Below are positions 3,073 through 23,056 of a DNA stretch of 24,961 nt, piece after piece (the first letter of the stretch is position 1; the number at the start of each line of letters is the position of its first letter). The stretch lies in the UHGV virus genome UHGV-0275691, one strand, 5' to 3'. Below the pieces are notes generated by a model. The model did no database searches and was not told the DNA's origin. It saw nothing but the letters and a program-made list of their open reading frames with translations. The stretch is from a virus. The translations under genes were made by a program, and so were the position numbers.

Positions 3073-3127
3073 AAAAAAATCCCGTAAAAAAAGCCGCACA
3101 GGCGGCCTTTAGTGATGAAGGGTCAGG

Positions 3128-3460
3128 TTAAACGATGCTGATTGCCGTTCCGGCAAACGCGGTCCGTTTTTTCGTCTCGTCGCTGGCAGCCTCCGGCCAG
3201 AGCACATCCTCATAACGGAACGTGCCGGACTTGTAGAACGTCAGTGTGGTGCTGGTCTGGTCAGCAGCAACTGCAAGAATGCCAACGGCAGCACCGTCGG
3301 TGGTGCCATCCCACGCAACCAGCTTACGGGTGGAGGTGTCCAGCATCAGCGGGGTCATTGCAGGCGCTTTCGCACTCAACCCGCCGGGCGCGGTTGCGGT
3401 ATGAGCCGGGTCACTGTTGCCCAGCGGCTGGTAATGGGTAAAGGTTTCTTTGCTCGTCAT
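3128..3460 (-). CDS. D: Capsid decoration protein D (110 aa)
   Basis: Matches lambda D from [10 protein letters not shown]. Confidence 0.95.
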
Positions 3461-18240: not shown

Positions 18241-18938
18241 ACACTTGCTCCTTTCAGTCCGAACTTAGCTTTAATTTCTGCGATCTTCGCCAGAGCCTGT
18301 GCACGATTTAGAGGTCTACCGCCCATAACAGGAAGTTGTTTTACTGGTTCAGGTATCGTCTCACCACGGTTAATTCGCGCTGTCATACAGGTCAGTTCAT
18401 CGGCAGCCTTGCGCCGTAATTCCGCATCAGTAAGCGCATTGGCCCGCATGTTCTGATACAGGTTGGTAACCAGCCAGTAGTGCGCGTTTGATTTCCACGG
18501 ATAAGACTCCGCATCCGGATACAGGCCTCGCTTCCGGCAATACTCGTAAACCATATCAACCAGCTCGCTGACGTTTGGCAGTCCGGCGATAACGGATGCT
18601 TCTTCCCGGCACCATGCAACAAACTGCCCGGGTGATGGCAGAAATGGTCGATTCTGCCGACGGGCTACGCGCATTCCTGCGTTAACCTGTTCCATTGTGG
18701 TGATCCCGTTTTCCCGGAAAGCCAGAACCCACTGGCGGCGGATTTCGTTCAGTTCGTTCTGGTCACGGTTAGCCAGACTCGCCGGGAAAGTTGCCAGTAA
18801 CTGGCTGAACACACCGTTGATGATCTGCGCTACCTGCTGTACCTGTGGCTTTTCGTCGTACTGTTCCGGCATGTTGTTGGCGATCCGACGCATCTGCTCA
18901 CGGTCAAAGTTAACCATCTGTGCGGCGATGTTTTTCAT
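18237..18938 (-). CDS. P: Replication protein P (DnaB loader), 233 aa
   Basis: Full-length match to recalled lambda P. Confidence 0.96.
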   Translation of the reverse strand: MKNIAAQMVNFDREQMRRIANNMPEQYDEKPQVQQVAQIINGVFSQLLATFPASLANRDQNELNEIRRQWVLAFRENGITTMEQVNAGMRVARRQNRPFLPSPGQFVAWCREEASVIAGLPNVSELVDMVYEYCRKRGLYPDAESYPWKSNAHYWLVTNLYQNMRANALTDAELRRKAADELTCMTARINRGETIPEPVKQLPVMGGRPLNRAQALAKIAEIKAKFGLKGASV

Positions 18939-19834
18939 AGATCCACCCCGTAAATCCAGTCAGTGTTTGTCAGGTCGAGTTTTGGTTTTCCGGCTGTCAC
19001 GCCAGCCTGTTGCTTGTTACGGTTGATTTCGAGCTGGGTCCACTTGTCGCGGAGTTTGGCCGGACTCAGCACGTTACCGGACCAGAAGTTGTCCTGGCAG
19101 GCCCAGCGGAAAAGCACACACATATCGCGGTGGTTACGTCCGTCACGTTCACGCATCAGGCGGATATCGTTAGCCCACCCAGCAAAATTCGGTTTTCTGG
19201 CTGATGGCGCGATGGTCTTCACCATGTCAAACATCCACTCTGCGGCGGTCAGGTCTTCTGCTGTTCCCCACTTACTGCCGCTCTGAATTGCAGCATCCGG
19301 TTTAACCACAGAAAGATCGTTTTCTGGCTGGTCAGAGGATTCGCCAGAATTCTCGGACGAATAATCTTTTCTTTTTTCTTTTGTAATAGTGTCTTTTGTG
19401 TCCCCCTGTTTTGAGGGATAGCAATCCCCCAATTTGAGGGATGTTTTATCCCTCGTTTTAGGGGATTTTCCCTCGTTTTGAGGGATACACCATTCTGAGA
19501 TGTTTTTATTTGGTCCAAACATGCCGCCTTGCTGCTTGATAATATTCATTCTGACGAGTTCTAACTTGGCTTCATTGCACCGTTTGACAGGTAACTTTGT
19601 AATCTCGCTAAGTTGAGAATCGGTGATTCTGTCCATTGGTTTATTCCACCCATAGGTTTTACGCAGAATGGCAAGCAGCACTTTAAACTGTCGCTTGGTC
19701 AGATCTGCGCCTGAATAAGCCTCAAGCAGCATATTTGATAGTCTGGCGTAACCATCATCGAGATCTGCCACATTACGCTCCTGTCCGGTAAAGTTACCTC
19801 TGCCGAAGTTGAGTATTTTTGCTGTATTTGTCAT
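18935..19834 (-). CDS. O: Replication initiator protein O (299 aa)
   Basis: Matches recalled lambda O from MTNTAKILNF; contains ori iterons. Confidence 0.95.
   Translation of the reverse strand: MTNTAKILNFGRGNFTGQERNVADLDDGYARLSNMLLEAYSGADLTKRQFKVLLAILRKTYGWNKPMDRITDSQLSEITKLPVKRCNEAKLELVRMNIIKQQGGMFGPNKNISEWCIPQNEGKSPKTRDKTSLKLGDCYPSKQGDTKDTITKEKRKDYSSENSGESSDQPENDLSVVKPDAAIQSGSKWGTAEDLTAAEWMFDMVKTIAPSARKPNFAGWANDIRLMRERDGRNHRDMCVLFRWACQDNFWSGNVLSPAKLRDKWTQLEINRNKQQAGVTAGKPKLDLTNTDWIYGVDL
19361..19487. repeat. ori: ori-lambda: four about 18-bp iterons (variants of TCCCTCNNTTTGAGGGA) plus adjacent AT-rich region, inside O
   Basis: Four tandem palindrome-like repeats visible at about 19401-19487, followed on the O sense strand by an AT-rich stretch 19361-19399. 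Confidence 0.85.
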
Positions 19835-19868
19835 AATGACTCCTGTGGATTGATCCAGTCTTTCTACA

Positions 19869-20147
19869 TCAGGCCTCAAAACTGTTGCAGCAGTCTTGAG
19901 GCTTTTCTTTTGTCAGCACCATGGCTACTTTCTTTGCTAGCTTTGCTAATTCCTCGTCTTCAACACCCCACTCCAGCACAGCCAGAAGCATGGCCATCTT
20001 TGGGATAAAGCTGTCTTTCCATCGCGAAATTTGCGATTCATTAATCCCTAATGCATCAGCAACCTTTCGCTGACCACGTACAGCAATTCGATTCAGGATG
20101 TTGCTTGTGATTGCATTCGCTTTCTTGCGAGTACTTGTAAGTTGCAT
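19869..20147 (-). CDS. c1: CII-family lysogeny activator (P22 C1-like), 92 aa
   Basis: Start at internal ATG (MQLTSTRKKANAI...); core ...QSQISRWK...IPKMAMLLAVLEWGV shared with lambda CII; position between cro and O. Confidence 0.8.
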   Translation of the reverse strand: MQLTSTRKKANAITSNILNRIAVRGQRKVADALGINESQISRWKDSFIPKMAMLLAVLEWGVEDEELAKLAKKVAMVLTKEKPQDCCNSFEA

Positions 20148-20204
20148 ATGTAAGTATTTCCTTAACAAATAAGAAGTTATACGCACCAACTGATGCGCGT
20201 TGTA

Positions 20205-20249
20205 TTCCCGCATTTCGGCGGGAATAAGGACCATGACTGTTAAAGAGCA
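20205..20249 (-). promoter_or_regulatory. nutR: nutR: boxA (UGCUCUUUAACA) followed by boxB hairpin (CCCGC-CGAAAU-GCGGG) on the rightward (minus-strand) transcript
   Basis: boxA-like sequence directly after the cro stop, followed 14 nt later by a hairpin whose 19-nt core TCCCGCCGAAATGCGGGAA is repeated exactly at nutL. Confidence 0.65.
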
Positions 20250-20255
20250 ATTTGC

Positions 20256-20441
20256 TTATGCCGCTTTGCGATAAGCACTTTCTTGATACTTCAGGGCGCC
20301 AGCTGTAACGACTTCCAGTCGATAGGCGTCTTTCTCTGGGATGACTTCCTTCCACTGAGAGACTGCTGCATCGCTAATGCCTAACGCTTTAGCTACCGCA
20401 CGCTGGGTTCCGAAGTGGTCGATAACATCTTTCTTGTACAT
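20256..20441 (-). CDS. cro: Cro repressor, P22 type (61 aa)
   Basis: Near-identical to recalled P22 Cro (MYKKDVIDHFGTQRAVAKALGISDAAVSQWKE...). Confidence 0.88.
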   Translation of the reverse strand: MYKKDVIDHFGTQRAVAKALGISDAAVSQWKEVIPEKDAYRLEVVTAGALKYQESAYRKAA

Positions 20442-20521
20442 AGACTCGCTCCGAAATTAAAGAACACTTAAATTATCTATCAAAGGAATCTTAAGTCAAG
20501 TTTATTTAAGATGTCTTAACT
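20442..20521. promoter_or_regulatory. OR operator/promoter region: PR on the minus strand (TTGACT-N17-ATAATT, + coordinates 20471-20499) and P22-type operator palindromes (for example TTAAGATGTCTTAA at 20506-20519); PRM presumably adjacent with a leaderless c2 transcript
   Basis: Consensus-like -35/-10 on the cro strand; palindromic TTAAG/CTTAA half-sites between divergent cro and c2. Confidence 0.6.
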
Positions 20522-21172
20522 ATGAATACACAACTGATGGGTGAGCGTATTCGCGCTCGCAGAAAAGAACTTAAGATTAGGCAGGCTGCCCTTGGCAAGA
20601 TGGTTGGCGTGTCTAATGTTGCTATTTCCCAATGGGAGCGTTCTGAAACTGAGCCCAATGGCGAAAACCTATTGGCTTTAGCCAAGGCTTTACAGTGCTC
20701 CCCTGATTACTTGTTGAAAGGAGAAGATAGTCTTTCAAACATTGCCTATCACAGCAGGCATGATCCAAGAGGTTCGTATCCTCTAATTAGTTGGGTAAGC
20801 GCAGGATGTTGGATGGAAGCTGTAGAGCCATATCATAAGCGTGCAATAGATAACTGGTACGATACAACCGTAGATTGTTCAGAAGATTCGTTTTGGCTGG
20901 ACGTAAAGGGTGATTCGATGACGGCTCCAGCCGGTCTTAGCATCCCGGAAGGGATGATAATACTAGTCGATCCTGAAGTAGAACCTCGTAATGGGAAGCT
21001 GGTAGTGGCAAAGCTCGAAGGAGAAAACGAGGCAACTTTCAAGAAGTTAGTTATTGATGCTGGCAGAAGGTTTCTAAAACCACTTAACCCACAATATCCG
21101 ATGATTGAGATCAACGGGAACTGCAAAATCATCGGTGTAGTTGTCGATGCAAAAATAGCAAACCTTCCATAA
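20522..21172 (+). CDS. c2: Prophage repressor, P22 C2 type (216 aa), LexA-like autocleaving C-terminal domain
   Basis: Near-identical to recalled P22 C2 repressor over the full length. Confidence 0.95.
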   Translation: MNTQLMGERIRARRKELKIRQAALGKMVGVSNVAISQWERSETEPNGENLLALAKALQCSPDYLLKGEDSLSNIAYHSRHDPRGSYPLISWVSAGCWMEAVEPYHKRAIDNWYDTTVDCSEDSFWLDVKGDSMTAPAGLSIPEGMIILVDPEVEPRNGKLVVAKLEGENEATFKKLVIDAGRRFLKPLNPQYPMIEINGNCKIIGVVVDAKIANLP

Positions 21173-21193
21173 GGGGCATTCGCCCCTTTTTTT
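21172..21193 (+). terminator. Rho-independent terminator immediately after the repressor gene (AGGGGC-ATTC-GCCCCT then T7)
   Basis: Perfect 6-bp GC stem overlapping the stop codon, followed by a seven-residue T tract. Confidence 0.75.
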
Positions 21194-21261
21194 CTTTCCT
21201 TTAAAAATCAAAGCAAAACTTAAGCTTCGCAACAAAATTTAAGTTTTCTTCAAAAACGCTC

Positions 21262-21299
21262 TTGACCAATAGTTAAAGAAATCTTAAATTTAAGTCATC
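21262..21299 (+). promoter_or_regulatory. pL promoter (TTGACC-N17-TAAATT) overlapped by an OL operator palindrome CTTAAATTTAAG (21288-21299)
   Basis: Consensus-like -35/-10 oriented toward N; perfect 12-bp palindrome with the TTAAG half-site over the -10. Confidence 0.6.
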
Positions 21300-21336
21300 G
21301 GCAGGACGCTGGTAGCCAAACGGAACAGATTGGCAG

Positions 21337-21378
21337 GCTCTTTAACATTGATGGGATTGTCCCGCCGAAATGCGGGAA
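21337..21378 (+). promoter_or_regulatory. nutL: nutL: boxA (GCTCTTTAACA) followed by the boxB hairpin
   Basis: Same 19-nt boxB core as nutR in the opposite orientation, 107 nt upstream of the N start. Confidence 0.65.
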
Positions 21379-21484
21379 CCAAAGAGTAGTTGGCTTTGGG
21401 GTGACGTGAAGTGCAGCTGCACGACGGCAACCGGAAGATAAGCACCCGGCGCGTCACCGCCAAAGTCAATCATCGGAGGTCAAC

Positions 21485-21757
21485 ATGGCAGTAGTCATTA
21501 CATATCTGGCTGACGATAACGCCAGAAATCGCCGCAGAGCACGCAGACAGGCTCAACGTGAGCAGGCAATGCAAGAACAGCGACTGGCGCGAAAAATTGC
21601 GCTAAAGCTCTCTGGTTGCGTCAGAGCAGACAAAGCAGCATCACTCGGAAGCCTTCGCTGCAAGAAGGCAGATGAATGCAGTGGAAGTATTTGCCTGCCA
21701 AACGTAGCCATTTACGCGGCAGGCTACCGGAAATCAAAACAACTGACGGCGAGATGA
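21485..21757 (+). CDS. N: Antitermination protein N (arginine-rich motif), P22 gp24-like, 90 aa
   Basis: GGAGGT RBS; N-terminal arginine-rich motif NARNRRRARRQAQREQ; first gene downstream of pL/nutL; C-terminus resembles recalled P22 gp24. Confidence 0.8.
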   Translation: MAVVITYLADDNARNRRRARRQAQREQAMQEQRLARKIALKLSGCVRADKAASLGSLRCKKADECSGSICLPNVAIYAAGYRKSKQLTAR

Positions 21758-21773
21758 TAAATTAATTTGCTAA

Positions 21774-22355
21774 TTACTTGTTTTTGCCATGCTTATCCTG
21801 AGCGATAAGTTCATCCATAAGACTGTCTTTCTTCCCAGCAAACCTAATGTAGCACTCATTTCTATAGCGTTCCGGGATAACAAAACGGTCGATTTCAGGA
21901 TATCCAGTAGCAGAAGGTACCCGAATAAGAAGCCCTTTTTCGAGCAATGAGATTGCTTCAGGGCTTCCCTTTTCTGTCTTTAGCTGGTTATTAGCGGCTA
22001 CAGCGAATGCCAAATACGCTCTTTCTCCAAGAGTTAACGAATCAAACAAATCTTGCACGTATTTCTCTTCTTTAGATTTGCGCTTCTGAGCAGCGAATAT
22101 CTCAATTCTTTCAGTCACAGCGTGATAAGCGGAATTAACAACGCCGTTAAGCACATAGCTAACGCAAAACAACAGGATGTAATACATCCAGTAATGAGGA
22201 AGGATTTCTGGATTATGCAGGTTTATCCATTCTTTTACGCTTATAGGCATAACAATAATCAATATGATTAGGATGATTAGCATATGAATCAACTGTTTAA
22301 GTGTCATTCCTTGCAGGAAAAAATGCATTAGTTCCTGCCACCATGAGTTGTTCAT
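21774..22355 (-). CDS. sieB: Superinfection exclusion protein SieB (membrane Abi-type protein), 193 aa
   Basis: Two hydrophobic helices (LIHMLIILIILIIVMPI; YWMYYILLFCVSYVL); matches my recollection of P22 SieB; located next to N on the opposite strand, as sieB is in P22 and lambda. Confidence 0.8.
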   Translation of the reverse strand: MNNSWWQELMHFFLQGMTLKQLIHMLIILIILIIVMPISVKEWINLHNPEILPHYWMYYILLFCVSYVLNGVVNSAYHAVTERIEIFAAQKRKSKEEKYVQDLFDSLTLGERAYLAFAVAANNQLKTEKGSPEAISLLEKGLLIRVPSATGYPEIDRFVIPERYRNECYIRFAGKKDSLMDELIAQDKHGKNK

Positions 22356-22569
22356 CGGCGTTTCTCTTTTGCTCTCTGTAGGGGTGAATAGAGTTTATCC
22401 GATTTCTCGCTGTAGGGGTACACGAGAACCACCGACCCTGATGTGGTTAAAAGACAGGCATACTAATAAACACTGCACTGTGTATTCATTCCAACGAGTG
22501 AATACACTGAGCAATGTCGCTCGTAACTAAACAGGAGCCGACTTGTTCTGATTATTGGAAATCTTCTTT

Positions 22570-22597
22570 GCCCTCCAATGTGAGGGCGATTTTTTAT
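22570..22597 (+). terminator. Rho-independent terminator in the leftward operon upstream of ea10 (GCCCTC-loop-GAGGGC then TTTTTT)
   Basis: 6-bp GC stem plus T tract on the plus strand; tL-type terminator expected to be read through by N-modified polymerase. Confidence 0.6.
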
Positions 22598-22984: not shown

Positions 22985-23056
22985 GCGCGGCGTTACCGCA
23001 TACCAATAACGCTTCACTCGAGGCGTTTTTCGTTATGTATAAATAAGGAGCACACC

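What the first reader, a model, noticed from the sequence alone, without database searches (positions are those of the whole stretch)
20205..21378. Identical 19-nt boxB core present in inverted orientation on both sides of the immunity region
TCCCGCCGAAATGCGGGAA occurs at 21360-21378 on the plus strand and as its exact reverse complement at 20205-20224. Each copy is preceded on its transcribed strand by a boxA-like element (GCTCTTTAACA / TGCTCTTTAACA) and lies just downstream of pL or PR, respectively. The hairpin has a CCCGC/GCGGG stem with a 6-nt loop CGAAAU, which differs from the lambda boxB loop that I recall as 5 nt, implying co-adapted N specificity.
Basis: seen in the sequence. Interest (0 to 1): 0.4.

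Follow-up and report, generated by a model that had tools for sequence, protein, structure and literature searches.

The report
HK620-type nutL/nutR antitermination sites
The two inverted 19-base hairpins are the left and right "nut" sites where this E. coli prophage's N protein loads onto RNA polymerase to read through terminators; they are an ordinary part of lambda-like phages and are already annotated in phage HK620.

Summary
Shuffles predict 0 matches. Each copy follows a boxA (GCTCTTTAACA) on its transcribed strand. One lies between pL and an N gene (21485-21757, Pfam N_peptide). The other lies between cro and a cII/C1 gene.

Against phage 21, the pL-to-N stretch is 95-98% identical except for two patches, boxB (42%) and N codons 1-33 (46%). 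[quoted passage not shown] This held although 29 different immunity cassettes lie between the nut sites.

The element is not new. The GenBank record of phage HK620 (AF335538) annotates the same sequences as putative nutL and nutR. The 1.6-kb region occurs at 100% identity in complete E. coli genomes.

One refinement: relatives with the same ARM carry loops C/A-G-N-R-A-U (GAAA, GAGA, GCAA, GUAA, GGAA). The "6-nt loop" is therefore best read as a GNRA tetraloop closed by a C·U mismatch, much as the phage 21 hexaloop has a C·C-closed tetraloop-like fold. I found no binding or reporter data for this N/boxB class.

The parts
21262..21290 (+). pL-like promoter (TTGACC, 17 nt, TAAATT) overlapping operator-like repeats
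   Evidence: Consensus scan, 9/12 matches. Operator-like repeats D3/D5/I3/I5. Homologous to the phage 21 pL region.
21337..21347 (+). boxA-L, GCTCTTTAACA
   Evidence: Aligns with the annotated boxA-L of phage 21. Lies within HK620's annotated nutL.
21360..21378 (+). boxB-L hairpin: stem 21360-21365 / 21372-21377, loop CGAAAU 21366-21371 (GAAA at 21367-21370)
   Evidence: Identical to the HK620 nutL boxB.
21379..21408 (+). Second small hairpin (CCAAAG...CTTTGG) followed by a G/T-rich GGTGACGTG; a candidate boxC-like region of nutL
   Evidence: Fold. Similar sequence follows boxB in phage 21 and in the lambda-type nutL of mEp213 (TCAAAGCAGAAGGCTTTGGGGTGTGGTG). The function is inferred only.
21485..21757 (+). 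N antiterminator gene (90 aa), with ARM DDNARNRRRARRQAQREQ in residues about 9-27
   Evidence: ORF. Pfam PF25694 N_peptide, E = 2.1e-15. 96-97% identical to HK620 N.
20472..20499 (-). PR-like promoter (TTGACT, 16 nt, GATAAT)
   Evidence: Consensus scan, 10/12 matches.
20256..20441 (-). cro gene (61 aa)
   Evidence: ORF. Pfam P22_Cro, E = 8.7e-28.
20238..20249 (-). boxA-R, TGCTCTTTAACA; identical to the first 12 nt of the E. coli rrn boxA-spacer (ugcucuuuaaca)
   Evidence: The rrn sequence is from PMC2724277.
20203..20226 (-). boxB-R hairpin: 9-bp stem UAUUCCCGC/GCGGGAAUA, loop CGAAAU; the 19-nt shared core is 20205-20223
   Evidence: HK620's annotated nutR differs at only 2 positions, both outside boxB.
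20181..20199 (-). Hairpin CGCGCAUCAGUUGGUGCGU between nutR and c1; a candidate tR1-region structure
   Evidence: Read from the sequence. It lies just downstream of the site HK620's record labels tR1, and in the same relative position as tR1 in the phage 21 record. It was not called by the terminator scan. Inferred.
19869..20147 (-). c1/cII-like gene (92 aa from the ATG at 20147)
   Evidence: Pfam Phage_CII, E = 2.4e-44; the profile is covered 1-91 of 91 by the 92-aa form.
20522..21172 (+). c2/cI-type repressor (216 aa) between the two nut sites
   Evidence: ORF. Pfam HTH_3 plus Peptidase_S24.
22568..22589 (+). Terminator-like hairpin with a T-run in the pL operon downstream of N; a candidate target of N read-through
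   Evidence: Consensus scans. The function is inferred.

Best explanation
These are the nutL and nutR sites of an HK620-type N antitermination module in a lambda-like E. coli prophage. Transcripts from pL (rightward in the window) and from PR through cro (leftward) each carry boxA followed 12-14 nt later by the boxB hairpin. By homology with lambda, P22 and phage 21, host NusB/NusE bind boxA, and the N-terminal ARM of N (gene at 21485-21757) binds the boxB loop. The rest of N, with NusA and NusG, then makes RNA polymerase resistant to downstream terminators, so the delayed-early genes on both arms are expressed. The two boxB copies are identical because a single N must recognise both. The boxB loop is best read as a GAAA (GNRA) tetraloop closed by a C·U mismatch. 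Shown here: the anatomy, homology to annotated nut sites, the hairpin with compensatory changes, and strict concordance between ARM and boxB. Inferred: the binding partners and the read-through itself.
For: Exact 19-nt inverted pair, with 0 expected by chance. Both fold into stable hairpins. boxA occurs only at these two places.

Gene order is c1 <- nutR <- cro <- PR | c2 | pL -> nutL -> N, with Pfam matches for N_peptide, P22_Cro, Phage_CII and an S24 repressor.

HK620's record annotates the identical 42 nt as putative nutL, and a 46-nt nutR that differs at 2 non-boxB positions. The phage 21 record annotates boxA-L/nutL and boxA-R/nutR at the aligned positions.

Segment identity to phage 21: pL to boxA-L 95%, boxB 42%, leader 73%, N codons 1-33 46%, codons 34-63 98%.

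Natural chimeras separate the variables. HK629 N has the phage 21 ARM with this window's C-terminus, and it has the phage 21 boxB. CUS-3 N has this ARM with the phage 21 C-terminus, and it has this boxB.

In distinct loci, 124 carry this ARM with CGAAAU at both nut sites, 18 carry the phage 21 ARM with CUAACC at both, and 1 belongs to a third class. None is discordant. The nut pair flanks 29 clusters of unrelated immunity DNA.

Stems vary with compensatory changes (GC->AU, UA->CG, CG->UA). 81% of cells pair, against 37-61% when the partner is slid.

Loop variants found with the same ARM are A-GAGA-U, A-GAAA-U, A-GGAA-U, A-GUAA-U and C-GCAA-U. Scans for loop position 2 not G, or position 5 not A, found nothing linked to this ARM.
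Against: No experiment on this N/boxB class was found. No paper in the searchable library prints the boxB or ARM sequence, and HK620's annotation itself says 'putative'.

The concordance counts come from loci fetched by pattern or by N similarity. They are phylogenetically related, and boxB-L lies only about 110 nt from the ARM codons. Linkage could therefore explain part of the nutL-ARM association, though not the nutR association across different immunity cassettes.

Invariance of the CGAAAU loop is partly a product of the search design.

Downstream terminators are only consensus matches. The GNRA plus C·U fold is inferred from comparison and from analogy with phage 21, not from a structure.
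Confidence: 0.9

Rival explanations
1. The inverted repeats act at the DNA level, as boundary or recombination sequences that let immunity cassettes be exchanged between phages. In this view there is no RNA function.
For: The pair brackets the immunity region and is found around 29 different intervening cassettes. Mosaic joints fall at or in boxB, for example the half-boxB remnant in mEp213 and the identity breakpoints at boxB.
Against: Each arm is itself a hairpin with a non-palindromic loop, always in the same orientation relative to boxA and to transcription. In some phages the nutL and nutR stems differ while the loop is kept, for example TCTCCGC vs CTCCCAC. Stem changes are compensatory. 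Loop variation follows the RNA GNRA rule. boxB type follows the ARM of N. Joints at boxB are what selection for matched N/boxB sets would produce.
Confidence: 0.03
2. The hairpins are transcription terminators, attenuators or RNA-processing sites (for example RNase III sites) in the early leaders, not N-loading sites.
For: They are G+C-rich hairpins in early transcripts. As I recall, not checked here, the lambda N leader has an RNase III site and nutL also takes part in translational control of N.
Against: No U-run follows either hairpin (GGGAACCAAAG, GGGAAUACAAC). Neither was called by the terminator scan, although other sites were. The stems, 6-9 bp, look too short for an RNase III substrate (my general knowledge, not tested). 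Neither role explains the coupling to boxA or to the ARM of N.
Confidence: 0.03
3. The sites are inert relics, and the prophage's N system is non-functional or uses other sites.
For: The window comes from a prophage-like context found in many E. coli chromosomes, where PGAP calls N a hypothetical protein. Orphan N genes do exist, as in mEp213.
Against: The N ORF is intact with a GGAGG ribosome-binding site. Both nut sites are intact and identical. The same module occurs in isolated, plaque-forming phages: HK620, HK140, HK630, N7, JEP4, CUS-3. No other boxA or boxB-like sites exist in the window.
Confidence: 0.03

Closest known systems
Phage HK620 putative nutL and nutR (GenBank AF335538.1; Clark et al. 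2001, J Mol Biol 311:657, a paper I could not read)
   Same: nutL is identical over all 42 annotated nt (GGCTCTTTAACATTGATGGGATTGTCCCGCCGAAATGCGGGA). nutR is identical in boxA core, boxB and loop. N is 96-97% identical, with the same ARM.
   Different: The immunity region between the sites differs. The window has a P22 c2/phage 21-type repressor and cro, with about 1.1 kb between the nut sites; HK620 has a different cI plus hkaS, with about 1.7 kb. The nutR boxA starts with T rather than C, and there is one spacer change. The rest of the window is lambda-like rather than P22-like.
Phage 21 nutL/nutR and N (record OL657228; N peptide-boxB structure PDB 1NYB)
   Same: Same scaffold: pL to boxA-L is 95% identical, boxA-R and its spacer are nearly identical, and N codons 34-63 are 98% identical. 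boxB has a 6-nt loop in both. The phage 21 loop CUAACC folds as a GNRA-like UAAC closed by a non-canonical C·C pair (PMC12550061). That parallels C·U plus GAAA here.
   Different: boxB sequence is 42% identical and the ARM region 46% identical at the DNA level (GTAKSRYKARRAELIAERR vs DDNARNRRRARRQAQREQ). The tetraloop here is a true GNRA, not UMAC.
Lambda nutL/nutR and N
   Same: Same architecture (boxA, spacer, boxB, G/T-rich tail) and same genome positions. The ARM shares the core A-x-x-RRR-x-RR (lambda AQTRRRERR vs ARNRRRARR here; sequences). The loop contains GAAA.
   Different: The lambda boxB is GCCCU-GAAAA/GAAGA-AGGGC, a 5-nt loop. BoxB pentaloops take a GNRA-like fold by looping out one base, as shown for P22's GACAA in PMC12550061; that lambda loops out its 4th loop base is my recollection. 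The lambda boxA is CGCUCUUA, without the extra U. There is no Trp at the position equivalent to lambda N W18.
P22 gene 24 protein and its nut sites
   Same: Same system and positions. The window's c2, cro and c1 genes are P22-like, about 83% identical at the DNA level.
   Different: The P22 boxB has the pentaloop GACAA with a looped-out C (PMC12550061). The P22 N matches the window's N only over residues 47-90, at about 57% identity, so the N-terminal ARM region does not align. As I recall, the P22 ARM is GNAKTRRHERRRKLAIER.
E. coli rrn antitermination boxA
   Same: The nutR boxA TGCTCTTTAACA equals the rrn boxA-spacer ugcucuuuaaca (PMC2724277).
   Different: rrn antitermination needs neither N nor boxB (PMC2724277). 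Here boxA is paired with a phage-specific boxB and an N gene.

Membership tests
Lambdoid N-utilisation (nut) site | boxA-like sequence (CGCUCUU(U)A) upstream of the hairpin on the transcribed strand | tested here: met
   GCTCTTTAACA at 21337-21347 (+) and 20238-20248 (-). These are the only two matches in the window. The consensus sequences are from PMC2724277.
Lambdoid N-utilisation (nut) site | boxB: a short stable hairpin with a small purine-rich loop, a few nt downstream of boxA | tested here: met
   Stems of 6 and 9 bp with loop CGAAAU, z = -2.7 and -4.5. Compensatory stem changes in relatives.
Lambdoid N-utilisation (nut) site | Position: nutL between pL and N; nutR between cro and cII | tested here: met
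   ORFs and Pfam matches. Promoter-like sites. Alignment to annotated phage 21 and HK620 features.
Lambdoid N-utilisation (nut) site | A cognate N protein with an N-terminal arginine-rich motif encoded in the same phage | tested here: met
   The 90-aa ORF at 21485-21757 matches PF25694 N_peptide (57.5 bits, cut-off 27.9).
Lambdoid N-utilisation (nut) site | boxB specificity co-varies with the ARM of N across phages | tested here: met
   0 discordant among about 150 distinct loci in three classes. Chimeric N proteins HK629 and CUS-3. The sampling is not independent.
Lambdoid N-utilisation (nut) site | Terminators downstream in both early operons that N-modified polymerase must pass | tested here: inconclusive
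   Terminator-like sites at 22568-22589 and 23008-23027 (+), and at 17924-17901, 13519-13498 and 11447-11427 (-). These are consensus matches only.
Lambdoid N-utilisation (nut) site | N- and Nus-dependent read-through that requires the site | not testable with these tools
   Needs reporter or in vitro transcription assays. No published test of this class was found.
HK620-type nut/N class | Sequence identity to HK620's annotated nutL/nutR and N | tested here: met
   nutL 42/42 nt. nutR differs at 2 positions outside boxB. N is 96-97% identical.
Lambda-type boxB (GNRA-like pentaloop) | 5-nt loop GAAAA/GAAGA on a GCCCU/AGGGC stem | tested here: not met
   The loop is 6 nt (C-GAAA-U) and the stem differs.
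Phage 21-type boxB | Hexaloop CUAACC recognised by the ARM GTAKSRYKARRAELIAERR | tested here: not met
   The loop length is the same, but the loop, stem and ARM sequences differ.

The most novel reading that the evidence does not exclude
The HK620-type N family may be a fourth natural and so far uncharacterised ARM-boxB recognition mode. Its boxB would be a true GNRA tetraloop (any N, R = A/G) flanked by C·U or A-U, with no looped-out base. It would be orthogonal to lambda, P22 and phage 21 N. If so, it would show that the looped-out loop base is dispensable for building a working antitermination complex; as I recall, not checked here, that base was proposed to contact NusA in lambda. It would also give another orthogonal peptide-RNA tethering pair.
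Probability: 0.45. Interest if true: 0.35.

Novelty: already known. Interest (0 to 1): 0.18.

Why it matters
For the biology of this window it matters little. It confirms a textbook arrangement, matched nutL/nutR sites serving one N protein, in a very common E. coli prophage module. At least 80% of the 1.6-kb region is present in 487 of 5426 complete genomes.

Three smaller points are useful:

- **Annotation.** Pipelines call this N a "hypothetical protein". Several phage records extend cII/C1, or call small ORFs, across the nut sites.
- **Evidence for co-adaptation.** The comparative data give an unusually clean natural demonstration that boxB and the first ~33 residues of N are exchanged as a matched set, independently of the immunity cassette and of the C-terminus of N.
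- **An untested class.** The N/boxB class appears to use a genuine GNRA tetraloop and has no structure or binding data that I could find. It is a cheap candidate for an additional orthogonal RNA-tethering pair.

Tried and rejected
- **Rfam.** An E-value search of 19800-21800 gave only weak chance matches; no nut/boxB family is represented.
- **PDB sequence search with N.** No relative was found, only a spurious RNF168 match. Chains shorter than 20 residues are not in that library, so short N peptides could be missed.
- **tblastn with the 44-aa N-terminal fragment.** It found nothing, probably because of the low-complexity filter. The full N worked.
- **Literature.** No paper in the library prints the boxB or ARM sequence. 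The HK620 paper (PubMed 11518522) and the CUS-3 paper (PMC1951898) are not held. The epsilon34, phage L and mEpimmI papers discuss other N classes only.
- **The search for related loci with an N alignment.** It returned only near-identical N genes. Diversity had to be reached with DNA patterns instead.
- **Loop position 6 not U.** The scan gave 15 hits, none in the nut scaffold; they look like chance.
- **Loop position 2 not G, or position 5 not A.** The scans gave 9-10 hits, none next to this ARM.
- **Intrinsic-terminator reading.** Rejected, because no U-tract follows either hairpin and the scan did not call them.
- **DNA-level inverted-repeat reading.** Rejected on the orientation, compensatory-change and GNRA evidence.
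- **Left unresolved.** U-GAAA-U hairpins after boxA in L340-type loci had no N gene identified. A separate class CACCGC-GAUGAU-GCGGUG was not followed.

Full report
**1. The observation**

The 19-mer TCCCGCCGAAATGCGGGAA is at 21360-21378 on the plus strand. Allowing 3 mismatches gives no further copy, and 100 dinucleotide-preserving shuffles gave none.

An independent repeat search reports the same 100% inverted pair. It also reports a second inverted pair over boxA and the start of the spacer. GCTCTTTAACA occurs only at 21337-21347 (+) and 20238-20248 (-), and the minus copy is preceded by T.

As RNA, the nutL copy forms a 6-bp stem and the nutR copy a 9-bp stem. Both have the loop CGAAAU, at -10.5 and -13.7 kcal/mol, with z-scores of -2.7 and -4.5 against shuffles.

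**2. Context**

Between the two copies lie a 216-aa HTH plus S24-peptidase repressor (20522-21172, +) and, divergently, a P22_Cro-family cro (20441-20256, -). Downstream of the minus copy is a Phage_CII-family gene. Downstream of the plus copy is a 90-aa ORF (21485-21757) that matches Pfam N_peptide above its curated cut-off.

Promoter-like sites fit PR (20499-20472, -) and pL (21262-21290, +), and they overlap operator-like repeats. The plus-strand copy therefore lies in the pL leader just upstream of N, which is the nutL position. The minus-strand copy lies after cro and before cII, which is the nutR position.

Terminator-like sites exist further down both operons, but they are consensus matches only. 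Neither hairpin is followed by a U-run, and neither was called as a terminator.

**3. Identity with annotated sites**

The immunity region is of the P22/phage 21 type, and the rest of the window is lambda-like.

The curated phage 21 record annotates boxA-L, nutL, boxA-R and nutR. In alignment, the window's boxA and hairpins fall at exactly those positions.

More decisively, the GenBank record of phage HK620 (AF335538.1) carries the features "nutL; putative N-utilization leftward" and "nutR; putative N-utilization rightward". Their sequences are GGCTCTTTAACATTGATGGGATTGTCCCGCCGAAATGCGGGA and CGCTCTTTAACAGTCATGGTCCTCATTCCCGCCGAAATGCGGGAAT. The first is identical to the window. The second differs at two positions outside boxB. 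HK620 N is 96-97% identical to the window's N.

The same N/nut module is in the isolated phages HK140, HK630, JEP4, N7, IME10, CUS-3, ECP1 and some Stx phages. The window's 1.6-kb region is 100% identical in several complete E. coli chromosomes, and at least 80% of it is covered in 487 of 5426 genomes. The element is thus already known and common, although it is labelled "putative".

**4. Is boxB co-adapted to N?**

Four lines of evidence say yes.

(a) *Segment identities.* Against phage 21, identity is 95% from pL to boxA-L. It drops to 42% in boxB and is 73% in the leader. It is 46% in N codons 1-33 and 98% in codons 34-63. The nutR side shows the same local replacement of boxB.

(b) *Natural chimeras.* HK629 N combines the phage 21 N-terminus with this window's C-terminus, and it has phage 21 boxBs. 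CUS-3 N combines this window's N-terminus with the phage 21 C-terminus, and it has this boxB. boxB therefore follows residues 1-33 of N.

(c) *Concordance counts.* Among loci fetched by the shared boxA-L flank, by N, or by boxB, unique combinations gave 95 of this ARM with this boxB and 24 of the phage 21 ARM with the phage 21 boxB. None was crossed. When nutR was also scored, 124 distinct loci had this ARM with CGAAAU at both sites, 18 had the phage 21 ARM with CUAACC at both, and 1 belonged to a third class. That class has boxB GGGGAUGAUUCGUCCCC at both sites and N beginning VKAREIRKLERARKHK. There were no discordant cases.

(d) *Different immunity cassettes.* The CGAAAU nut pair brackets 29 clusters of unrelated immunity DNA. 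nutR thus stays matched to N despite frequent exchange of what lies between them.

There are caveats. The loci are related, and some were selected by the pattern itself. nutL is tightly linked to the ARM codons. The counts are therefore not independent events.

**5. What the loop is**

In paired, divergent, boxA-preceded sites there are 20 distinct hairpin sequences. Their stems vary by compensatory changes: GC->AU in 3 sequences, UA->CG in 4, CG->UA in 1. 81% of cells pair, against 37-61% when the partner is slid.

A scan that left five loop positions free, requiring only that the first is not C, recovered several loops in the same nutL scaffold. All were followed by N proteins with the same ARM core (SDNARNRRRA[RK]RAA). 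The loops were A-GAGA-U, A-GAAA-U, A-GGAA-U and A-GUAA-U. The nutR partners of these sites were C-GCAA-U or C-GAAA-U.

Scans for loop position 2 not G, position 5 not A, or position 6 not U found only a few hits, none in the nut scaffold and none next to this ARM.

The consensus is (C/A)-G-N-R-A-U. This is a GNRA tetraloop closed by a C·U mismatch in the window, or by an A-U pair in relatives.

This parallels the solved phage 21 complex. There the hexaloop CUAACC forms a GNRA-like UAAC fold flanked by a non-canonical C·C pair. BoxB pentaloops reach a GNRA-like fold by looping out one base, as shown for P22's GACAA (PMC12550061). The lambda and rrn reference sequences come from PMC2724277.

The GNRA plus C·U fold is an inference; no structure exists for it.

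**6. Mechanism**

The mechanism is inferred by homology. NusB/NusE bind boxA. Here boxA has the rrn-consensus form with the extra U, and the nutR copy equals ugcucuuuaaca of rrn. The ARM of N binds the boxB tetraloop, and the N-Nus-polymerase complex reads through downstream terminators. One N serves both sites, which explains why the two cores are identical.

Rival readings are disfavoured by the evidence above. They are a DNA-level inverted repeat, a terminator or processing site, and an inert relic. Together they get under 10%.

**7. Novelty and score**

The finding is a correct reading of a known and widespread element, so I rate it "already known" with interest of about 0.18. The residual novelty is that this N/boxB class has no published binding, structural or reporter data that I could find. 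It also appears to use a genuine GNRA tetraloop. Orthogonality to the three studied classes is plausible but untested.

Noticed in passing
window 19869-20234 (-), against the ATG at 20147: The longest ORF for the cII/C1-like gene (121 aa) starts at 20234 and runs across the nutR boxB. The Pfam Phage_CII profile is fully covered by the 92-aa form that starts at 20147, which has an AAGGAAA ribosome-binding site. Records of N7, HK140 (both 366 nt) and CUS-3 (381 nt) annotate long forms, probably over-extended. HK630 and HK140 also annotate small hypothetical ORFs over or beside nutL.
   Followed up: partly
L246 (phage mEp213, JQ182733) 1621-1953 and 3106-3378; remnant at about 2735: mEp213 has two N genes. 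A lambda-type N with lambda-type boxBs lies next to the immunity region. A second, HK620-type N lies further down the pL operon with no intact cognate boxB. Only a 3' half (CCGAAATGCGGGAAC) remains, so a recombination joint appears to lie inside boxB.
   Followed up: partly
L222 about 3598 (+) and 6986 (-); L226 likewise: A third ARM/boxB class sits in the same nutL scaffold (GGCAGGCTCTTTAACATTGATGG...). boxB is GGGGAUGAUUCGUCCCC at both nutL and nutR. It is paired with a short GTG-initiated N (VKAREIRKLERARKHKEATAKRK...) that ends in the same CLPNVALYAAGYRKSKQLTAR tail.
   Followed up: partly
L053, L250, L256, L336, L376 and other nutR sites: One nutR lineage (GCUCCCAC-CGAAAU-GUCGGAGC and relatives) always has a non-Watson-Crick pair (C·C, C·A, C·U or U·C) at the third stem position from the loop. 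The nutL of the same phage has a perfect stem. The significance is unknown.
   Followed up: no
L341, L345, L351, L352, L355, L359, L375 and others: About 20 viral contigs carry GCTCTTTAACAATCAGGCAGGAATTGAG followed by the hairpin CACCGC-GAUGAU-GCGGUG. This is probably yet another nut/boxB class. Its N was not examined.
   Followed up: no
L340, L342, L356, L390, L398, L402: boxA is followed by CCCCGC-UGAAAU-GCGG(A), that is, a U-GAAA-U loop on a short stem. No N-like ORF was found within 500 nt, so it is unclear whether this is a nut site.
   Followed up: no
window 19403-19487: Four iteron-like direct repeats (CCCYNNTTTTGAGGGAT, spaced 20-24 nt) lie inside the O-like replication gene (18935-19879, -). 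This is the arrangement annotated as ori iterons inside the phage 21 replication-initiation gene.
   Followed up: partly
window 21774-22355 (-): A SieB superinfection-exclusion gene (Pfam PF14163, E = 4.7e-25) lies directly downstream of N on the opposite strand. HK140 has the same arrangement.
   Followed up: partly
window 21379-21408 (+): Just after the nutL boxB there is a second small hairpin (CCAAAG/CTTTGG) followed by GGTGACGTG. Similar sequence is kept in phage 21 and in the lambda-type nutL of mEp213, so it may be a boxC-like element. It is absent from nutR.
   Followed up: partly
L001 (CUS-3) about 2260-2300, inside the annotated 'bsq5 boundary sequence': CUS-3 has about 330 nt between its nutL boxB and N. 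This stretch contains GCTCTTCCATCCCCGTCTAATTGGCGGGGAAGG, a boxA-like sequence plus a different hairpin. It may be a remnant of, or a second, nut-like site.
   Followed up: no
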